Of a stretch of DNA of 43,981 bases, positions 4,473-12,688 are shown piece by piece. Under the pieces are notes generated by a model. That model was given only the letters and a program-made list of their open reading frames with translations. It ran no database searches and was not told the origin of the DNA. The stretch is from a virus (Duplodnaviria; Heunggongvirae; Uroviricota; Caudoviricetes), in the IMG/VR virus record IMGVR_UViG_3300045988_012512, positions 1 through 43,981 of that record. One strand, 5' to 3'. Within the stretch, counting starts at the first letter, position 1, and each line of letters opens with the position of its first letter. The position numbers were made by a program, and so were the translations under genes.

Positions 4473-5873
4473 TTAACCGTCCACATTAAAATCAATACGG
4501 GTGATATATTTACTACCCCACGCAGAATCGGCCTGAGGGATAGTCGCGTAATCATCTACAGCCTGAACGTTTACCACAGAGCCATCGGAATAGGTTATGT
4601 TGATGCTTGTCGCGCCATTCATGGTTACTTTCGCGGACGCTGTCGAGCGGGTGACAACAACGGCATCGGTTATTACCGGGGATGTTGTATTTTGGTTTAC
4701 CTCTACAGTAGCCGCGGATAATTTAACCCCTGAAACGCCATCCCCCGTAAATGACCCGGTAACTCCGTCTGAATATATCCATGCGTCCATCCGTATGCTC
4801 ATTGTTTTATCTTCTGTTGCGGTAATCGTCTCCGATATTCGGAACCACCCTCCGCCTACGTCGGTTACATCTGTACCGCCTGGGCCGGAATAAATGCTAC
4901 CATCCCGCAAATCAACAACTGCTGAGCCTAATACTGTAGGAAGTTCTCGCACGTACATCCGTATGAAATTGTATCCGTTTGCTTTTGCGAAGAAACTAAA
5001 AGTAACCATGTCGCCAACACCAACGCTAACATCTACAGTCTGGTTTATTAGGTGGTTACCGCTTGTGGCGGTAGCAGTTACGTCGTACGTGCCTGCGGCT
5101 GTTAAAACACCTGTTTCAGATACTGATACACTCACCAAACCTTTGTTCCAGTTTGACGAAGAGAAATTGCTTGAATATAGGAATCTGTTAGTTACTGATG
5201 CCTCCGGTGGCACACGCCCAACTGCCGAGCCATCGATAAACGTAAGTGGCCATTCACCGGCGGCGGACTGCACAAGATTGCCGTTTCGGTTGATGTAATA
5301 AACCTGCGGCCCGTCATACACAATGCGGCTATCAAGAGTCGACGCCAGAAGGTTAATCGGCGGGTATCCTGCAGGCCCTTCATTGCTCCAGATGCGCGGG
5401 AACGTCGTCTCGTAGTTCGCATATATTTTCAGGAAACTACCCAGACAGTCCCCGTAACAACCGTACAAATCCGGAAGATTGTTAATCAGGCACTGGTTCT
5501 CAAGGTCCTGGAACGGCGATTTCTCGGCGGTTGCCGTGAAAGTAATCGTCCAGTTAATGCCATCTTCGGTGGACTCAGCGATGGTGGACGTGATTGTTAC
5601 CTGGTAATCCTCAATACCCATGCCGAAGTCGTGCGCCATCCAGAAACTTGACGCACCGCCGTCTACTTTTTCTAGGAACGACAGAAATGCCTGCCGCCCC
5701 AGCGCCGATGTAATCAAGGTTACGCTCACCGGGAACACGTCGTAATATGTGTCGCGTCCCTGACGCACCCCGCCACCGGCTAAATCTACACTCCAGACGT
5801 TGTTGCGTCTGGTCATTGAGTAGCCTTTCGACACAATAGGCTTAAGGCTACGTGGGAAATATAAGTCGGTCAT
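4473..5873 (-). CDS. minor / distal tail protein with C-terminal Ig- or carbohydrate-binding-like extension
   Basis: 466-aa ORF directly downstream of tape measure; stop/start overlap at 5873. Confidence 0.45.
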   Translation of the reverse strand: MTDLYFPRSLKPIVSKGYSMTRRNNVWSVDLAGGGVRQGRDTYYDVFPVSVTLITSALGRQAFLSFLEKVDGGASSFWMAHDFGMGIEDYQVTITSTIAESTEDGINWTITFTATAEKSPFQDLENQCLINNLPDLYGCYGDCLGSFLKIYANYETTFPRIWSNEGPAGYPPINLLASTLDSRIVYDGPQVYYINRNGNLVQSAAGEWPLTFIDGSAVGRVPPEASVTNRFLYSSNFSSSNWNKGLVSVSVSETGVLTAAGTYDVTATATSGNHLINQTVDVSVGVGDMVTFSFFAKANGYNFIRMYVRELPTVLGSAVVDLRDGSIYSGPGGTDVTDVGGGWFRISETITATEDKTMSIRMDAWIYSDGVTGSFTGDGVSGVKLSAATVEVNQNTTSPVITDAVVVTRSTASAKVTMNGATSINITYSDGSVVNVQAVDDYATIPQADSAWGSKYITRIDFNVDG

Positions 5874-8161
5874 TATTTAAACCCCGGCGCGTTTCTTGTG
5901 GCCTTGCGGGCCTTGCTAATCTTACTGTTGCTGTTCTGCAAAGACGCGGCGACTTGCTCCTCTATGATGATACGCAGACGGCCTTCATCATCTTGTTCTG
6001 TGGATACGTTGCCGATTTGAGAACTTGTGTTGTTTACGATAGTAACATTAGACGGGCCGGAAGAAGACCCGTTTTGCCCCATAATTTCTTTCATCTGCTG
6101 CGCGGTGCGCACGCGTGATGCACCAGCTGGCATGATAACTTCTGGTTTACCACGTTCTGCGATGGTGGAAGCCTGCCCCGCAGATAACTGACCGCCCTGT
6201 TCACGCGCGGACCGGATAGCGGAAACCTGCGCCATACCTGCACCAACGGCAGCGGCAGCGGCTACAGGGGCCAGGAACGGGCCAACTACAGGTATAGCTG
6301 CCGTTGACTTGTACGCCTCAATAGCTGCGGTGTACGTGGCGATAGTGGCCTGTACGATAGCGAATGCCTTGTACGCGCCAGAAGCCTCACCCAACGCAGA
6401 CCCGATGTTTGAGGCCATGTTACCAAAGGCCGTTGCCGTTGCATCGGCACGTTTGGTTGCGTATTGCTCGTTGATGGCGTTAAGAGCGGCCTGATACTGC
6501 TTCTCGCTAATCAAACCCTGCTCGCGGTACTTATCCGCTACCGCCAGTTTCTGCTGTTCCTGGATGTCGAGAAGCTCAAGCTCAGTAGCGTTCTGACCCA
6601 TAATCTGAGCCATGAAGTCGTCACCTTTCTGCTGCTTTTCCTGGGCTTCTTTCTGGCGTTTATCCAGTTCATCTTGTCGTTTTTGCCCGGCTTCGAGGAC
6701 GATAGCTGTTTTAGCTTGTTCATATTCTTTCAGGGACAACGCGCCCTGGCTGTAGAACTCTTTTGCCTTAGCCAGTTTCTGCTGTTCCTGCGCGTCGATA
6801 GCCTTTAACTCGTCGTTGTTCTGACGGGCCAAAGTGTCGAGGTAATCTTGCGCCTGATTCCGCAATTGCTCTGCTTTCTTGGCGGCGGCTTTTGCTGCTT
6901 TATCGTCGGTTGTCCCCACCCCACCAGTTCCGCCCTTTTTATTAACAAGGCTGGCTAAGTCAATTTCTTGCTTCTTACGCTCGTCGTACTGCTTGCGCTG
7001 TTCCTCAATTTCTTTCTTACGCTGTTTCGAGCGGTCAGTTATTGCCTGTGATTCTGCCTCCGCGCGTTTTATGCTAGCGGCGTACGCGGCGTCGGCCTCT
7101 GCGGTCAGGTTTTTAAATGTTAGCGCCGCCGTTTTGCTCGGGTCAAACACGTCGGCAAGGGTCTGCCCTAACGCTACAGCGTAATCGTCGATGCGCTGGA
7201 ACCACGCAATAACCTCGTGAAATGTCTGCTGGATGTCCGGCAACCACTCACGGATAGCATCCGGTATAGTCCCCAGCGAGTCAGACATATCAACGGATTT
7301 GTCCTCGGTATCGAATGCCAGGTCATTCAAGGCGTCGGAAATAAACTTGAATGACTCATTGAACAGCGCCACCCAATCCTGGAGCGTGGCGGCTATCTCA
7401 TTAGACGCGATGGCGTCGGTAAGCGCCGTGATAGCGTCTTCCGCTGTGGCCGCTTGCTCACCTACGGCGTCGCCAAAACCAGACTGCGCCACCGCAAGAA
7501 CAAGACCGTCGAAGGAGTCGGCGAGGCTCGATAACTGGCCGTCTAGCGTCTTAGAGCGCGTCTCCATCGCCCCGGCAAAATCGGTGTTGCCGATATTCAG
7601 GAGGTATTTCTGAATCTCTTCGGAGTTCTTCTTAACCGTGGTCGTTACGCCGCGGAACGTGAACGAAACTGTATCTGCCTGTTGCGACGACTTGATGCCG
7701 AACTCTTTTAAGCGCTCAAATTCAAATGTACTGGCGTCGGCAACTGCCTCAATCATCTGATTAAGGTCTTTACCCATAGCCGCCGCGGTGTTGCCGTAGG
7801 AGATTAACGCCTCTTTGCTGGGGTTCAGACCGAGCGCAACGAGCTTGGTAAACCCCTCTACCGCCTGATTGAGACCATACGGGGTCTCTTTTGCGAACTG
7901 TTGCAGGACGCTGAAAGCCTTAGCCGCGTTCTCGGCGCTCCCGGTCATCGTGATGAGGCCGGAGTTCAGCTTATCGAAGTTTCGCTGGGAATCCACCAGC
8001 GCGCTGAACACCTGCTTAGCGGTTTCCAGACTGACAACGGCGGCGGCGGCGGCCCCCGCCGCCTTGGTAAGCCCGTTCAGTTGTGATGTGGTTTTATCGA
8101 CGCCGGTCGATGATACTCGTACTATCAAGCTAGCGGTATCAGCCATGATTTCTACCTTCAA
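5873..8161 (-). CDS. tail tape measure protein
   Basis: 762 aa, Ala/Gln-rich with long coiled-coil segments; located between chaperones and tip genes. Confidence 0.8.
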   Translation of the reverse strand: MKVEIMADTASLIVRVSSTGVDKTTSQLNGLTKAAGAAAAAVVSLETAKQVFSALVDSQRNFDKLNSGLITMTGSAENAAKAFSVLQQFAKETPYGLNQAVEGFTKLVALGLNPSKEALISYGNTAAAMGKDLNQMIEAVADASTFEFERLKEFGIKSSQQADTVSFTFRGVTTTVKKNSEEIQKYLLNIGNTDFAGAMETRSKTLDGQLSSLADSFDGLVLAVAQSGFGDAVGEQAATAEDAITALTDAIASNEIAATLQDWVALFNESFKFISDALNDLAFDTEDKSVDMSDSLGTIPDAIREWLPDIQQTFHEVIAWFQRIDDYAVALGQTLADVFDPSKTAALTFKNLTAEADAAYAASIKRAEAESQAITDRSKQRKKEIEEQRKQYDERKKQEIDLASLVNKKGGTGGVGTTDDKAAKAAAKKAEQLRNQAQDYLDTLARQNNDELKAIDAQEQQKLAKAKEFYSQGALSLKEYEQAKTAIVLEAGQKRQDELDKRQKEAQEKQQKGDDFMAQIMGQNATELELLDIQEQQKLAVADKYREQGLISEKQYQAALNAINEQYATKRADATATAFGNMASNIGSALGEASGAYKAFAIVQATIATYTAAIEAYKSTAAIPVVGPFLAPVAAAAAVGAGMAQVSAIRSAREQGGQLSAGQASTIAERGKPEVIMPAGASRVRTAQQMKEIMGQNGSSSGPSNVTIVNNTSSQIGNVSTEQDDEGRLRIIIEEQVAASLQNSNSKISKARKATRNAPGFK

Positions 8162-8471
8162 ATATTGCTTCTAAGCCCATGATAATGTCTATCTCGAACA
8201 GGCTAAGCTGTTTTTGCGTAACATCGAGATAGGCTTTCAGGTCTTGCCACGTAACAGATTCTCTTGCAAACAATACTACAGCGTCCTCGCGCACGTGTCG
8301 CGTAAACTTAATGTCGCAATACGTCTCAAAGGTGGATATAAAAAGGGGCGGGCATTCTGGCCCACCCCGTCGCGCTGCACGTTTTTTCTTATCGATTACA
8401 CCCATCGCGATAAGCGCCTGTTCGTGTCCGTCGGCGATAGAATCAAACTCTCTGATTTTATGCTTATCCAC
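8139..8471 (-). CDS. tail assembly chaperone extension (GT-like, possibly made by -1 frameshift from 8504..8920)
   Basis: ORF in the -1 frame relative to the upstream chaperone; frame is open back to about 8522 and overlaps the chaperone stop. Confidence 0.4.
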   Translation of the reverse strand: MDKHKIREFDSIADGHEQALIAMGVIDKKKRAARRGGPECPPLFISTFETYCDIKFTRHVREDAVVLFARESVTWQDLKAYLDVTQKQLSLFEIDIIMGLEAIFEGRNHG

Positions 8472-8503
8472 AAACTCGTAGGTGGCGAACCTGTACAGCG
8501 CGT

Positions 8504-8920
8504 CTACTTTTCCTGTAATGCTTTACGCTCGGCGTTATGGAACGCCGCCACCTGTGTACCTAATGCCTTGAATTGGTCGAGCAATTTGCTAAACGCTTCC
8601 TTAGAGAAAGGCTCGTCAAAGCTCCAGCCGTTTACTACTTCTGCCGCAAGTTGCCGGTTGAGGTCTTCTGCCAGTTCGTTAACCGCCATGTTATATTCAG
8701 TATAATCACCAGAGTCTTTGGCAGCTTTTTCCAGTTCTTCAAAACGTGCCAGCCCGCGGCGGTACGCAATAATGAAAGCACGCCCCGCTTTAACGGCGAC
8801 ATCCGCATCGGGACTTACAACGTTAAGCCATTCACCGGAGTCTTCGCCGTTTGGCAGCAGAATGGGCATCTTCTTGCCTACCAGTGCTTTCTCTTCGAAA
8901 TAAAAATCAGAAAGTTTCAT
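8504..8920 (-). CDS. tail assembly chaperone (G-like)
   Basis: 138-aa acidic ORF just upstream of tape measure; AAGGA RBS. Confidence 0.5.
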   Translation of the reverse strand: MKLSDFYFEEKALVGKKMPILLPNGEDSGEWLNVVSPDADVAVKAGRAFIIAYRRGLARFEELEKAAKDSGDYTEYNMAVNELAEDLNRQLAAEVVNGWSFDEPFSKEAFSKLLDQFKALGTQVAAFHNAERKALQEK

Positions 8921-9028
8921 TCTTTAATCCTTTGGTTAAGAGGTTACAGGTTAACGATAAATGCGCCAGACGGGAACCACCCGCTTTTCGTGTGCGACAC
9001 TAGGCGCAAACTTATTCTATCACATTAC

Positions 9029-9057
9029 TTGCACACCCCAATATAATAGGGTACTAT
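9029..9057 (+). promoter_or_regulatory. sigma70-type promoter (TTGCAC-17-TACTAT) for the plus-strand island
   Basis: Canonical spacing; same promoter architecture recurs at 18527, 29673 and 30772. Confidence 0.55.
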
Positions 9058-9087
9058 TCACTTACACCAACAATGAAGGGGTTTAAA

Positions 9088-9279
9088 ATGTCCAGTTTAC
9101 CAGTTTCCTTAATTCTGTTTGCACTGCTCGCTTATTTCGCGCCTTTCCTGGTTGCGTACTTCCGTAACCATAAAGCGAAGTTAGCGATATTCATGGCTAA
9201 TCTGTTTCTTGGTTGGGTTCTGCTGCCGTGGGTATTTATCTTAATCTGGGCGTGCAACTCGAATGTCAAAGAGAAGTGA
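9088..9279 (+). CDS. superinfection-immunity-like small membrane protein
   Basis: Two hydrophobic helices with AYFRNH...ANLFLGWVLLPWVFILIWA, resembling the Imm superinfection-immunity family; AAGGGG RBS before the ATG at 9088 (ORF track starts at 9073). Confidence 0.55.
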   Translation: MSSLPVSLILFALLAYFAPFLVAYFRNHKAKLAIFMANLFLGWVLLPWVFILIWACNSNVKEK

Positions 9280-9317
9280 GCTAGTATAGGACAAATCCTA
9301 AACACGAGGAAGTAAGC

Positions 9318-10448
9318 ATGGCCCAGAAGAAAATAACCGACGAACAGTTACAGGAAGAATTGAACGCCGGGATGAAGAATGTAGACATCGCCCGTAAATA
9401 CGGCATCTCAGACCGCGTTATTCGTATCCGTAAAGCGAAGCTGGCTAAGAAAGGCGTAGGTCACGGGCGAGACGTTAGTCACCTTGTGCCCGATGGCTAC
9501 AAGATTAAGGGTACATCGTCTCTGGTGGACGAGTTCGGCAACACTAAGTTGCAATGGGTTAAGACCGACACCGATGCCGAACGTCAGGTAGAGTTGATGA
9601 AAGCCGTAATCGAAGGAATGAAATCAGAGATTACGCCAGTCGCCCCTGTTAAAGCGGCACGCGCCAAACGTGACGATAAACTACTCAATCTTTACACTGT
9701 GTCTGATTTTCATCTCGGTATGCTGGCATGGGCCGATGAGAGCGGCGACGACTGGGATATGAAGATTGCAGAAGACCTGTTCTCTCGATGGTTCGACGCG
9801 GCGTTTCAGAAAGCACCGGACGCGGGAACAGGAGTTATTAACCTTCTGGGCGACCTCGCTCACTTCGATAGTCTGGATGCAGTTACACCTGCAAGCGGGC
9901 ATGTTCTTGATGCGGACACGCGCTATCAGAAACTTGTACGCTATATGATTCGGATGGTCCGCCGTGTCATTGATATGGCGCTGGTTAAGCATAAAAATGT
10001 TCGCTTGCTTATCGTGCAAGGGAACCACGACGAAAGCGGAATGATTTGGTTGGCTGAGATGTTCAGTACGCTGTATGACAACGAGCCGCGGGTGTTCGTC
10101 GATACGTCGCCGGATGTTTACAAGATGGTGCAACACGGCAAAACGACGCTGTTCTTTCATCACGGTCACAAAGCACGCTTCGACGCTATCGAACCAGTTA
10201 TGATTGCCAAGTTCCGCAAAGCGTTCGGCGAGAGTATTTACAGCTACGCCCACGTAGGCCATCTGCACCACCAGAAGATTGTAGAAAGCCGTAACATGAT
10301 TGTTGAGCAACACCGCACCTTAGCGGCTAAAGACGCCTACGCCTCTCGCGGCGGATGGATGTCGGGCCGCAGTGCAAATGTAATTACTTATAGCGCCGAA
10401 TATGGCGAGGTCGCACGTTTAACTATTTCACCGGAGATGCTGGGATGA
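9318..10448 (+). CDS. HTH domain fused to calcineurin-like (SbcD/Mre11-type) metallophosphoesterase
   Basis: N-terminal HTH (VDIARKYGISDRVIRIRKAKL); five phosphoesterase motifs SDFHLG, GDLAHFD, GNHDE, HHGH, GHLHH. Confidence 0.75.
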   Translation: MAQKKITDEQLQEELNAGMKNVDIARKYGISDRVIRIRKAKLAKKGVGHGRDVSHLVPDGYKIKGTSSLVDEFGNTKLQWVKTDTDAERQVELMKAVIEGMKSEITPVAPVKAARAKRDDKLLNLYTVSDFHLGMLAWADESGDDWDMKIAEDLFSRWFDAAFQKAPDAGTGVINLLGDLAHFDSLDAVTPASGHVLDADTRYQKLVRYMIRMVRRVIDMALVKHKNVRLLIVQGNHDESGMIWLAEMFSTLYDNEPRVFVDTSPDVYKMVQHGKTTLFFHHGHKARFDAIEPVMIAKFRKAFGESIYSYAHVGHLHHQKIVESRNMIVEQHRTLAAKDAYASRGGWMSGRSANVITYSAEYGEVARLTISPEMLG

Positions 10449-10933
10449 AAGATATTGTAATTTTCGATTTAGACGGGACATTGGCCGACGGTACCCATCG
10501 CTTACACCTGTTACCAAAAGATAACTACGGAGAAACGTGGGCGTGGAAGCCATTTAACATGGCCTGCAAAGATGACGCTCCGATATACGACAATATCCAT
10601 TTGTGTAGCGTACTGTGGCATTCCGGACTTACTATAATTATCCTTACCGGGCGAAGTGATGACGCTGAGGAGGAGACTCGCGAATGGTTACGAGAGAATA
10701 ACGTTAGGTTTGACACGCTAATCATGCGCAGCAAACACGACAACAGAAAAGACATCGTAATTAAAGAAGAGGTGTTGCGTGCTTTCGGACTGGAAAGAAT
10801 CTTGTGTGCGTTCGACGACTCTCCAGCGGTAATAAAGCATTTCCGTGACCTCGGCATAACCGCACACGCAGTTACCGAATACGACTGTAACGGGAACTCT
10901 ACACACTTAAAACCACACGGGAGCGATAAATAA
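10445..10933 (+). CDS. HAD-superfamily phosphatase (T4 polynucleotide kinase 3'-phosphatase-domain-like)
   Basis: FDLDGTLA, IIILTGRSDD, RKDIVIKEEVL and DDSPAV motifs; ATGA overlap with the upstream gene. Confidence 0.7.
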   Translation: MKDIVIFDLDGTLADGTHRLHLLPKDNYGETWAWKPFNMACKDDAPIYDNIHLCSVLWHSGLTIIILTGRSDDAEEETREWLRENNVRFDTLIMRSKHDNRKDIVIKEEVLRAFGLERILCAFDDSPAVIKHFRDLGITAHAVTEYDCNGNSTHLKPHGSDK

Positions 10934-11487
10934 TGGCTAAGGTAATTATTCTTAATGGCCCTGCGGGTTGCGGGAAAGACACGCTTGCTATGGCGCTGGT
11001 AGAAATGGGCTTTGCGAAAGGAACTACCAGTTTCAAGAATCCAATGTTCAATATTGCTTTGGCAGCGTTAGGCCAGGATGCTTACCACGAATTTCTCGAC
11101 GGCTACGACGACCGGGCGCGGAAAGAAAAACCCGAGGGTTTTCTTAATGGGTTGTCCCGCCGCCAGTTAATGATTGCCATTTCTGAGCAATTCATTAAAC
11201 CGGTATTCGGCGATGATTATTTCGGTAAGTATCTTGCTGAAAACTTGCCTGACGGCGACGAAGTTTTTGTAGTGTCCGACGGTGGATTCGCCAGTGAAGT
11301 TGCCCCTATCGTCGCCGCGGGGCATGACGTGCGAATCGTCCGCCTCCATCGTGACGGCTATACGTTCATCGGCGATAGCCGTGGCTATCTGTACGATGTT
11401 AGTGGTGTAAAAGATTACGACACCTACATCATACCGGGTGACGTTAAATCGAACGTTATAGACATTGCTTTAAAATTAGGTTTGTAA
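10933..11487 (+). CDS. deoxynucleoside monophosphate kinase (T4 gene 1-like P-loop kinase)
   Basis: Walker A GPAGCGKDT; further blocks resemble T4 dNMP kinase; TAATG overlap with the HAD gene. Confidence 0.65.
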   Translation: MAKVIILNGPAGCGKDTLAMALVEMGFAKGTTSFKNPMFNIALAALGQDAYHEFLDGYDDRARKEKPEGFLNGLSRRQLMIAISEQFIKPVFGDDYFGKYLAENLPDGDEVFVVSDGGFASEVAPIVAAGHDVRIVRLHRDGYTFIGDSRGYLYDVSGVKDYDTYIIPGDVKSNVIDIALKLGL

Positions 11488-11491
11488 GAAA

Positions 11492-11518
11492 AAGGCCCCG
11501 AAAGGGGCCTTAGTTTTA
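11492..11518. terminator. bidirectional intrinsic terminator (AAGGCCCC-GAAA-GGGGCCTT)
   Basis: 8-bp GC stem flanked by A-run and T-run; lies between convergent genes. Confidence 0.7.
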
Positions 11519-12688
11519 TGCGTAGGTGATACGCTGGATAACAATAGACGACTGGTACTGGTTGCCAGTAGCCTGGCCTTCAATGGACTGAGTGATTGAC
11601 TCGGGTCCGCCAATCTCTGGTGTTACTGCTGTAAGCTCTGCGCGTTTCAAACTGAAAGACATCGCCCCGTTTACCCCAGCCAGAATAGAGTTAATCTCTA
11701 CCTGCTGTTCGTTGATAAACTTCTGGATCATCGCCATGTCGTACAGCTTGCCAGAGATAGAGAATGTGTTAGCTGCGCGTCCACGTTCGACGAACGCCAC
11801 GCTACTGTTACCGAGTTCGAACTGCGCGGAAGCTCCGTTGTCGTTGGTGATGGTGAGAGTATCGCAACGCAACGGCGTGGAGCCATCGAACACCGACACA
11901 TCTACCGACGAGAACGGCTCATCGGTGAACGTAACCTGAGAGAAATCAGAGCCAGACGGCGGCGCGGTAAGAATCTCCTGACTCAGGCCGATGAACGGGA
12001 AGCTGCCGGTGACCATGGCGTTAACCGCCTGCTCTACGGTAAAGCCAGAGATTTCCACACCTTTGGTCAGCATGTACGCGTCCGGGTTACCACACTGGCC
12101 CTTGAACCACGTCAGGATGGAGAACGTCTTACACGCGTTACCGGTTTCCAGCTTGTCGCCAGTTTTTGCGTCAGTGGTTACTGTCTCTGCTGTCAGCGTG
12201 TGCTGAATACCTGCGCCCGTAACTACCAGAGCGGAAACCGCGGTCACGATAAACGGTTTTGCGTTGTCGCCGGTTAAGTCGGTGAACGCAATCAGGTCGC
12301 CAACTTCTACACCGTCAGTAATGAAGCTACCGGCAGCGCGGGTGAATGTTTTACCTGCTGGGGCGACCGTAATTTCGGCGCCAGTAATCTCTACCCCAGC
12401 TTGCCACGTAGAAGTCATCGCTCCCGCAAGGAAATCATCCTGGCTACGAGAGCTAAGTTCGATGGCGTACTCCCCGCTAACCTGTTTGTTACCGGTTCGG
12501 ATGGATGTAGTTTCACGGCTGCCGTCTAGTTCGTTGGAAGTCAGCGCATCGCGGGTTACGGCAGGAACACCGCCAGTGTTACGCAACGGCGACCAGACAG
12601 GGTTAGCCGGTGTTACGCCCGGGGTAGTTTCCGCCACATAGAATTGCGCGGTATTCGCGCCCTTAAAAGGAGTTGTAGCCATATTCAC
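11516..12688 (-). CDS. major tail (tube) protein
   Basis: 390-aa ORF between neck genes and chaperones, followed by a terminator. Confidence 0.6.
   Translation of the reverse strand: MNMATTPFKGANTAQFYVAETTPGVTPANPVWSPLRNTGGVPAVTRDALTSNELDGSRETTSIRTGNKQVSGEYAIELSSRSQDDFLAGAMTSTWQAGVEITGAEITVAPAGKTFTRAAGSFITDGVEVGDLIAFTDLTGDNAKPFIVTAVSALVVTGAGIQHTLTAETVTTDAKTGDKLETGNACKTFSILTWFKGQCGNPDAYMLTKGVEISGFTVEQAVNAMVTGSFPFIGLSQEILTAPPSGSDFSQVTFTDEPFSSVDVSVFDGSTPLRCDTLTITNDNGASAQFELGNSSVAFVERGRAANTFSISGKLYDMAMIQKFINEQQVEINSILAGVNGAMSFSLKRAELTAVTPEIGGPESITQSIEGQATGNQYQSSIVIQRITYA

What the first reader, a model, noticed from the sequence alone, without database searches (positions are those of the whole stretch)
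9088..9279. Superinfection-immunity-like membrane peptide in a virulent-type genome
The 63-aa product has two hydrophobic helices and the motif AYFRNH...ANLFLGWVLLPWVFILIWA that I associate with the Imm superinfection-immunity family. It is the first gene of the island, behind a strong promoter, so it may exclude secondary infecting phages.
Basis: partly seen in the sequence, partly recalled or inferred. Interest (0 to 1): 0.45.

Follow-up and report, generated by a model that had tools for sequence, protein, structure and literature searches.

The report
T4 Imm-family gene in Kagunavirus
The 63-residue membrane protein is a clear relative of the phage T4 Imm protein, which stops later-arriving phages from injecting DNA, but the same gene is already annotated this way in many closely related phages, so the finding is correct and ordinary.

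Summary
The ORF at 9088-9279 (+) is real. It encodes 63 aa with two hydrophobic segments around a basic loop, RNHKAK. It matches Pfam PF14373 Imm_superinfect at 48.6 bits (cut-off 27.9) and PHROG 1039. It aligns without gaps to T4 Imm (28% identity, E 2e-10). It keeps both residues whose mutation weakens T4 Imm exclusion: T4 R33 is R26 here, and T4 W50 is W43.

The window is a Kagunavirus (Guernseyvirinae), about 91% identical to K1ind3 and EM1. The closest annotated relative has no integrase. The protein is identical to K1G ORF21 and is labelled "superinfection immunity protein" in many GenBank records and at least five papers.

The gene is under purifying selection (dN/dS 0.03-0.25). It sits at the same place, paired with a metallophosphoesterase gene, in all 36 related loci examined.

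The "strong promoter" is overstated. The perfect TATAAT has a weak -35 and occurs only in Kagunavirus. The element conserved across genera is a moderate TTGCAC-17-TACTAT.

No one has tested exclusion for this clade. By homology it most likely blocks genome entry at the inner membrane, possibly by binding the tape measure protein. This is an already-known annotation and the interest is low.

In passing: the intergenic region holds an int-alpA-like structured RNA on the minus strand.

The parts
9088..9279 (+). imm-like CDS. It encodes a 63-aa small membrane protein of the PF14373 / T4 Imm family.
   Evidence: Pfam 48.6 bits against GA 27.9. PHROG 1039 at E 1.4e-22. BLASTP to T4 Imm at E 2e-10. 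dN/dS 0.03-0.25. AF2 pLDDT 96.2.
9076..9081 (+). Shine-Dalgarno sequence AAGGGG, six bases before the ATG at 9088.
   Evidence: Read from the sequence. An equivalent SD-ATG pair is conserved in all 35 related loci, unlike the ATG at 9073.
9029..9057 (+). Conserved promoter-like element TTGCAC-17-TACTAT. The Jerseyvirus form is TTGCAT/TTGCGC-17-TATTAT. It is the most likely imm promoter and is of moderate strength.
   Evidence: TTGC and TAyTAT are invariant, with constant 17-nt spacing, in 31 unique intergenic sequences from two genera. This is a consensus match only, with no transcript data.
9019..9047 (+). It has a perfect -10 and a 4/6 -35.
   Evidence: The -10 degrades to CATAAT in some Kagunaviruses and to TAATAG in Jerseyviruses.
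9318..10448 (+). Metallophosphoesterase, annotated 'DNA repair exonuclease'. It is the constant partner of imm in the island.
   Evidence: PHROG 704 at E 2.5e-167. Weak Pfam Metallophos_2 hit. It lies immediately downstream of imm in 36/36 loci.
10445..10933 (+). HAD-type PNKP phosphatase-domain protein. It is variable cargo of the island.
   Evidence: PF25109 HAD_PNKP at 73.1 bits. PHROG 415. Present in only 12/36 loci.
10933..11487 (+). P-loop kinase, annotated deoxynucleoside monophosphate kinase. It is variable cargo of the island.
   Evidence: PHROG 139 at E 7e-45. Present in 12/36 loci, always together with the HAD gene.
11492..11511 (.). Bidirectional G+C-rich hairpin, AAGGCCCC-GAAA-GGGGCCTT. 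It ends the island and, on the other strand, follows the tail tube gene.
5873..8146 (-). Tape measure protein, the inferred (not shown) target class of Imm. Its one hydrophobic segment is encoded at about 6215-6310.
   Evidence: Weak Pfam TMP_3 hit at 38.8 bits, below the GA of 41. Single hydrophobic segment at residues 618-649. That region is 80-82% identical between Kagunavirus and Jerseyvirus, against 49% overall. No similarity to T4 gp29.
8946..9010 (-). int-alpA-like structured RNA motif upstream of the minus-strand tail assembly chaperone gene. It shares the intergenic region with the imm promoter.
   Evidence: Rfam RF02996 at 31.8 bits here (GA 35.8), and 36.6, 36.6 and 35.8 bits in relatives. 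95% of cells are paired and 3 pairs change on both sides.

Best explanation
The gene encodes a minimal member of the T4 Imm family: an N-terminal hydrophobic helix followed by the 42-residue PF14373 core. The infecting Kagunavirus makes it and it inserts into the cytoplasmic membrane, with the basic loop R26-K31 probably on the cytoplasmic side. It prevents phages that adsorb later from moving their DNA across the inner membrane.

By analogy with T4, it would do this by binding the membrane-inserting part of the incoming phage's tape measure protein, so that no translocation channel forms. This fits phages that bind abundant surface glycans, which they cannot mask.

Shown here: family membership, conservation of the functionally tested residues, purifying selection, fixed synteny, and orientation with the replication genes rather than the tail genes.

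Inferred: membrane topology, time of expression, the exclusion phenotype, which phages are excluded, and the tape measure protein as target.
For: - **Family match.** PF14373 at 48.6 bits against GA 27.9. PHROG 1039 at E 1.4e-22. T4 Imm hits the same model at 58.2 bits.
- **Direct alignment to T4 Imm.** 28% identity over 54 aa without gaps, E 2e-10.
- **T4 mechanism.** Preprint 10.64898/2026.03.06.709160 reports that T4 Imm co-purifies with tape measure protein gp29, and that R33A and W50A reduce exclusion. With the +7 offset, these are R26 and W43 here. Both are nearly invariant across 73 diverse homologues.
- **Structure.** Two hydrophobic segments with a +3 loop. Confident four-helix model. 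The best fold matches are other phage Imm-family proteins, with TMq 0.68-0.74.
- **Selection and synteny.** dN/dS 0.03-0.25. The gene is present at the same site in 36/36 Guernseyvirinae loci and in 368 phage records.
- **Orientation.** The island is on the same strand as the replication module and opposite to the structural genes.
- **Possible target.** The window's tape measure protein has a single hydrophobic segment, in its most conserved region across genera.
- **Receptor biology.** PMC11990801 argues that Kagunaviruses use abundant O-antigen or capsule glycans, and that receptor modification would be futile for such phages. That makes a post-adsorption block a sensible strategy.
Against: - My searches found no experiment on any Guernseyvirinae Imm.
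- Identity to T4 Imm is only 28%.
- The tape measure proteins are not detectably related (E 1.1), so the target cannot be transferred by homology.
- The family is very large: 5,463 cluster representatives at 50% identity. It includes ordinary bacterial chromosomal genes (L007) for which no exclusion role is known. The family name therefore rests on one characterised member.
- One transcriptome of a close relative puts the gene in its 'late' class (PMC12645636). That class also holds the DNA polymerase, so the classes are hard to interpret.
- PADLOC has no matching model.
Confidence: 0.6

Rival explanations
1. It is a true PF14373 family member, but its role is not exclusion of other phages. 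It could instead be some other membrane function shared with the many bacterial chromosomal homologues, such as altering membrane physiology during infection or protecting the infected cell envelope.
For: The family has thousands of members. Some are in plainly non-phage chromosomal contexts: L007 sits next to phasin, ABC-binding and IS110 genes. Only T4 Imm has been characterised (and literature searches). The gene is always paired with a metallophosphoesterase of unknown role.
Against: This copy is in a virulent phage, like T4 Imm. Both residues needed for T4 exclusion are kept. Other members lie in early-gene-like regions of large phages (L009, L003).
Confidence: 0.27
2. It is a small lysis-timing protein, holin- or antiholin-like. 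The two in-frame starts at 9073 and 9088 would give a dual-start pair as in lambda S.
For: The protein is small with two hydrophobic segments. MKGFKM precedes the second Met. One paper loosely describes the homologue as 'involved in cell lysis' (PMC12645636).
Against: - There is no holin family hit in Pfam or PHROGs.
- In the closest annotated relative, the two holins, the lysin and the spanins lie elsewhere in the genome.
- The upstream ATG has no Shine-Dalgarno sequence. It is lost in L015, L017 and L022 and absent from the second Kagunavirus allele and all Jerseyviruses.
Confidence: 0.05
3. It is a chance ORF, or the real gene is the antisense ORF at 9132-9305.
For: The ORF is short, and an overlapping 57-aa antisense ORF exists.
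Against: Pfam E 7.5e-13. Synonymous changes far exceed non-synonymous ones in the + frame. The SD-ATG pair is conserved. The structure model is confident.
Confidence: 0.01

Closest known systems
Phage T4 Imm (immunity to superinfection, NP_049660, 83 aa), the prototype of Pfam PF14373
   Same: - It hits the same Pfam model and PHROG.
- It aligns without gaps over 54 residues.
- It has the same pattern: a hydrophobic helix with Y-x-x-P, a basic loop beginning with R, and a W-rich second hydrophobic segment.
- T4 R33 and W50 are conserved as R26 and W43.
- Both are encoded by virulent coliphages.
   Different: - Identity is only 28%.
- This protein is 20 residues shorter. It lacks the T4 C-terminal tail and 7 N-terminal residues.
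- It has P47 where T4 and the family consensus have G.
- The phage is a siphovirus, and its tape measure protein shows no similarity to T4 gp29.
- The gene lies inside the tail gene block, not beside DNA-metabolism genes 42 and 43.
- Its function is untested.
Annotated 'superinfection immunity protein' of Guernseyvirinae: K1G ORF21 (ADA82265), P AB-2017 P_11, EM1 gp46, MA12 gp44, SeF1 Gp_027, fBC-Eco01 Gp28c
   Same: The sequence is identical to K1G ORF21 and 95-98% identical to other Kagunavirus copies. The core is about 75% identical to Jerseyvirus copies. The position is the same, between the tail assembly chaperone and tail tube genes.
   Different: Nothing of substance differs. This window carries the MSSLP... 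N-terminal allele rather than the MTGIT... allele seen in other Kagunaviruses.
[quoted passage not shown]
   Same: These are small inner-membrane proteins proposed to stop a membrane-inserting protein from forming a channel. Preprint 10.64898/2026.03.06.709160 cites them as parallels to T4 Imm.
   Different: I neither tested nor expect sequence relatedness. This is a comparison of mechanism only.

Membership tests
Pfam PF14373 Imm_superinfect / T4 Imm family | Score above the curated gathering threshold of the family model, covering the whole domain | tested here: met
   48.6 bits against 27.9. Residues 16-56 match profile positions 2-42 of 42.
Pfam PF14373 Imm_superinfect / T4 Imm family | Direct similarity to the characterised prototype, T4 Imm | tested here: met
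   BLASTP gives 28% identity over 54 aa with no gaps, E 2e-10. T4 Imm itself scores 58.2 bits on PF14373.
Pfam PF14373 Imm_superinfect / T4 Imm family | Small protein with two hydrophobic membrane segments around a short basic loop | tested here: met
   Hydrophobic segments at 1-26 and 31-58, with loop RNHKAK at +3. Helices at 3-16, 18-25, 31-41 and 45-55 with pLDDT 96.
Pfam PF14373 Imm_superinfect / T4 Imm family | Residues needed for exclusion by T4 Imm (R33, W50) | tested here: met
   R26 and W43 align to them. Both are at least 90% conserved in 73 homologues.
Pfam PF14373 Imm_superinfect / T4 Imm family | Predicted fold like other family members | tested here: met
   The top five Foldseek BFVD hits include four proteins named as superinfection immunity proteins. 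TMq is 0.68-0.74, but E-values are only 0.015-0.1 because the protein is so short. No solved structure exists to compare with.
Pfam PF14373 Imm_superinfect / T4 Imm family | Expression early in infection | tested here: inconclusive
   The gene is on the same strand as the replication genes, with its own promoter-like element. However, the K1B4 transcriptome lists the homologue as 'late', together with the DNA polymerase.
Pfam PF14373 Imm_superinfect / T4 Imm family | Blocks genome entry of superinfecting phage after adsorption | not testable with these tools
   This needs plating efficiency, adsorption and DNA-entry assays. I found no published test for this clade.
Pfam PF14373 Imm_superinfect / T4 Imm family | Binds the tape measure protein of the excluded phage | tested here: inconclusive
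   The window's TMP has one hydrophobic segment in its most conserved region. It has no similarity to T4 gp29. Binding itself cannot be tested here.
Holins (class II) / antiholins | Gene in the lysis cassette next to the endolysin, a holin family match, and a conserved dual start | tested here: not met
   There is no holin hit. The lysis genes lie elsewhere in relative EM1. The second start is not conserved.
Receptor-masking exclusion lipoproteins (T5 Llp, T1 Cor type) | N-terminal signal peptide with a lipobox cysteine | tested here: not met
   The only cysteine is C56, near the C-terminus, and there is no lipobox (sequence).

The most novel reading that the evidence does not exclude
The T4 Imm mechanism, a block of the tape-measure channel, would extend to siphoviruses with unrelated tape measure proteins. 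The Kagunavirus Imm would bind the highly conserved C-terminal hydrophobic region of its own kind's tape measure protein, which is encoded just across a shared divergent control region.

PF14373 proteins would then be general blockers of tape-measure insertion. The thousands of bacterial chromosomal homologues could be an unrecognised anti-injection defence that is missing from current defence catalogues.
Probability: 0.25. Interest if true: 0.5.

Novelty: already known. Interest (0 to 1): 0.15.

Why it matters
It matters little as a discovery, because the gene is already annotated and discussed for this phage subfamily.

Its practical value is in phage-therapy cocktails, where Kagunaviruses and Jerseyviruses are popular. 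An active Imm could make related phages interfere with one another in a mixture.

It is also a compact test case: 63 residues, with two obvious point mutants. It could show whether the newly proposed Imm-tape measure mechanism of T4 applies to siphoviruses, and to the very large and mostly uncharacterised PF14373 family.

Tried and rejected
- **Upstream ATG at 9073.** This would give a 68-aa product and a possible lambda-S-like dual start. I rejected it. It has no Shine-Dalgarno sequence and is not conserved.
- **Antisense ORF at 9132-9305.** I rejected it because the substitution pattern supports the + frame.
- **Solved structures.** The family has no PDB relative. The only hits are chance matches to PsbW at E > 0.1.
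- **NCBIfam and PADLOC.** Neither has a model matching the protein.
- **Window TMP against T4 gp29.** There is no significant similarity, so I could not support the target by homology.
- **Scan of genome contigs with the 73-sequence alignment.** I looked instead at two contexts by exact-protein look-up.
- **Prophage origin.** The imm region has no match in 5,426 complete E. coli genomes.
- **K1B4 transcriptome.** I read it for timing, but its classes are too coarse to settle early versus late.
- **Free-energy test of the intergenic RNA.** The z-score was -0.23, which is uninformative. Support for the structure comes from the Rfam match and covariation.

Full report
**Observation.** The stretch 9088-9279 on the + strand is an ATG-to-TGA ORF of 63 codons. 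A Kyte-Doolittle scan finds two hydrophobic segments, at residues 1-26 and 31-58, separated by RNHKAK with net charge +3. AAGGGG lies six bases upstream of the ATG at 9088.

In 35 related IMG/VR loci an equivalent SD-ATG pair is always present. The in-frame ATG at 9073 (68 aa) has no Shine-Dalgarno sequence and is lost in several relatives. Pairwise Nei-Gojobori estimates against those relatives give dN/dS of 0.03-0.25. In the core (residues 16-56), pN stays at or below 0.18 while pS reaches 0.8. This is a real, constrained protein-coding gene, and the overlapping antisense ORF can be dismissed.

**What the window is.** Megablast places the whole window in genus Kagunavirus (Guernseyvirinae). 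It is about 91-92% identical to phages K1ind3, K1ind1/2, EM1, K1G and K1H over most of its length. The fully annotated relative EM1 has no integrase or CI-type lysogeny module. Its holins, lysin and spanins lie far from this gene. The imm region has no match in 5,426 complete E. coli genomes, so it is not circulating as a prophage gene there. "Virulent-type genome" is therefore a fair description.

**Family membership.**
- The protein matches Pfam PF14373 Imm_superinfect at 48.6 bits (curated cut-off 27.9, E 7.5e-13), with residues 16-56 covering profile positions 2-42 of 42.
- It matches PHROG 1039 "immunity to superinfection" at E 1.4e-22.
- I fetched T4 imm from NC_000866. Its 83-aa product scores 58.2 bits on the same Pfam model. 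It aligns to the window protein without gaps over 54 residues, at 28% identity and E 2e-10.
- An AlphaFold2 model built on 73 homologues is confident (pLDDT 96.2), with helices at 3-16, 18-25, 31-41 and 45-55.
- The best Foldseek matches among viral models are other phage proteins named as superinfection immunity proteins, with TMq 0.68-0.74. The E-values are weak because the protein is so short.
- No family member has a solved structure in the PDB copy.

**Link to mechanism.** A 2026 preprint (10.64898/2026.03.06.709160) reports three things. T4 Imm co-purifies with a fragment of tape measure protein gp29. Cryo-EM shows Imm against the hydrophobic face of the gp29 helical bundle domain. The substitutions R33A and W50A reduce exclusion.

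With the +7 offset of the gapless alignment, these residues are R26 and W43 in the window protein. Both are conserved here and are at least 90% conserved across 73 diverse homologues. The same holds for Y16, F17, P19, A23, H28, I34, N38, G42, W48 and W54. In my model W43 lies in the turn between the last two helices.

The window's tape measure protein (5873-8146, minus strand) has a single hydrophobic segment, at residues 618-649 of the ORF as listed. Between Kagunavirus and Jerseyvirus the protein is 49% identical overall, but 80-82% identical across residues 601-700, which include that segment. The Imm core is similarly conserved across the two genera.

This is compatible with a conserved Imm-TMP relationship but does not demonstrate one. 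The window TMP shows no similarity to T4 gp29 (E 1.1). The target is therefore an inference by analogy.

**Context.** The gene is the first of four + strand genes:
- imm, 9088-9279
- a metallophosphoesterase annotated "DNA repair exonuclease", 9318-10448
- a HAD/PNKP-type phosphatase, 10445-10933
- a P-loop kinase, 10933-11487

They are wedged between the minus-strand tail assembly chaperone (8504-8920) and tail tube (11516-12688) genes. A bidirectional hairpin at 11492-11511 closes the block.

In 36 of 36 related loci the order chaperone(-) | imm(+) phosphoesterase(+) ... tube(-) holds. The phosphatase and kinase are present in only 12 of 36, and Jerseyvirus MA12 carries other genes there. 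The constant unit is therefore imm plus the phosphoesterase, followed by a variable cargo slot. The island is on the same strand as the replication module and opposite to the structural genes. That suggests it is not part of the late tail transcript.

**Promoter.** It has a perfect -10 and a 4/6 -35. It is one of nine promoter-like matches in 3.4 kb, where shuffles give 4.1 +/- 2.0. In an alignment of 31 distinct intergenic sequences this -10 decays to CATAAT or TAATAG.

A second element, TTGCAC-17-TACTAT at 9029-9057, keeps TTGC, TAyTAT and the 17-nt spacing in both genera. I consider that conserved, moderate element the better candidate. Neither is shown to be active.

The only transcript data I found, for the close relative K1B4, place the homologue in a "late" class that also contains the DNA polymerase and methylases. 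The tail genes are "middle" in the same scheme (PMC12645636). This at least separates the gene from its tail-gene neighbours, but it cannot settle the timing.

**How far function can be transferred.** The family is very large. An exhaustive phmmer search finds 5,463 cluster representatives at 50% identity with E <= 0.001. A profile search finds 1,271 clusters at 90% identity with E <= 1e-5, from many bacterial phyla. One member sits in an ordinary bacterial chromosomal context (L007). Another sits in a run of small early-type phage genes (L009).

Only T4 Imm has been characterised, so the family name rests on one protein. A phage-borne member that keeps the tested residues is the kind of homologue most likely to share the function. 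The BASEL study argues that Kagunaviruses depend on abundant surface glycans, which cannot practically be masked during a lytic cycle (PMC11990801). That makes a block after adsorption the sensible way for such a phage to exclude competitors. I put exclusion at about 0.6, and the tape measure protein as target somewhat lower.

**Comparison with what is known.** The protein is identical to K1G ORF21 and 95-98% identical to other Kagunavirus copies. It is labelled "superinfection immunity protein" in GenBank records such as KY295898, PQ571293 and NC_031021. Published genome papers make the same inference:
- PMC5582158
- PMC8425127, which notes that all Jerseyviruses carry imm yet are lytic
- PMC9409062, which notes that T4 Imm is in the same PHROG
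- PMC9825357

None tested it.

**Differences from T4 Imm.** This protein has a shorter N-terminus and no C-terminal tail. It has P47 in place of the family's glycine. It is encoded by a siphovirus and lies inside the tail gene block.

**Rivals.**
- A non-exclusion membrane role shared with bacterial homologues cannot be excluded (0.27).
- A holin or antiholin role is unlikely (0.05). There is no holin match, the lysis cassette is elsewhere, and the dual start is not conserved.
- A spurious ORF is excluded for practical purposes.

**Verdict.** The mechanism is inferred by homology and the annotation is already known. Interest is low, at 0.15.

Noticed in passing
window 8946-9010 (minus strand), between the tail assembly chaperone gene and imm: This block is more conserved than the flanking coding DNA. 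It matches Rfam RF02996 (int-alpA RNA) over the full model, at 31.8 bits here (gathering score 35.8, E 1e-4) and 36.6, 36.6 and 35.8 bits in relatives L013, L032 and L018. Across 13 distinct sequences, 95% of cells pair, against 61% or less for slid controls. Three pairs change on both sides, and the G-U variants work only on the minus-strand RNA. From memory, the motif is known from between integrase and alpA genes of enterobacterial prophages. Here it sits upstream of the tail chaperone and tape-measure genes of a virulent phage that has no integrase (alpA was not looked for).
   Followed up: partly
window 9088-9132 (Imm residues 1-15); loci L026-L034: Kagunaviruses carry two very different N-terminal helix alleles, MSSLPVSLILFALLA and MTGITMFFLIIIVLV (pN about 0.5), joined to an almost identical core. 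The tail assembly chaperone also has two alleles, 97% and 54% identical. These are not linked to the imm allele (L013, L031), so recombination occurs in or near the intergenic region.
   Followed up: partly
window 9217-9219 (Imm residue 44): Residue 44 (V, I or A) is the only recurrently polymorphic core position among close relatives. It lies directly after W43, the equivalent of T4 W50.
   Followed up: no
window 10445-11487: A separate HAD/PNKP-type phosphatase (162 aa) and a P-loop kinase (184 aa) overlap by one base. Together they resemble a split version of a polynucleotide kinase-phosphatase. The pair is present in only 12 of 36 related loci, always together, and other genes (for example Ant/Roi in MA12) replace it elsewhere.
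   Followed up: partly
window 8139-8920 (minus strand): The tail assembly chaperone ORF (8504-8920) is followed by a second ORF in another frame (8139-8471, Phage_TAC_18). K1G annotates the pair as a joined product (ORF22B), the usual programmed frameshift of siphovirus tail chaperones. I did not locate the slippery site.
   Followed up: no
window 5873-8161 (minus strand): The mechanical ORF for the tape measure protein starts at TTG 8161. Alignment with the Jerseyvirus protein and the length annotated in P AB-2017 point to the ATG at 8146 (MADTASL...) as the true start.
   Followed up: partly
window 8800-11600: G+C is somewhat lower across the intergenic region and the island (0.44-0.52) than in the flanking tail genes (0.50-0.57).
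   Followed up: no
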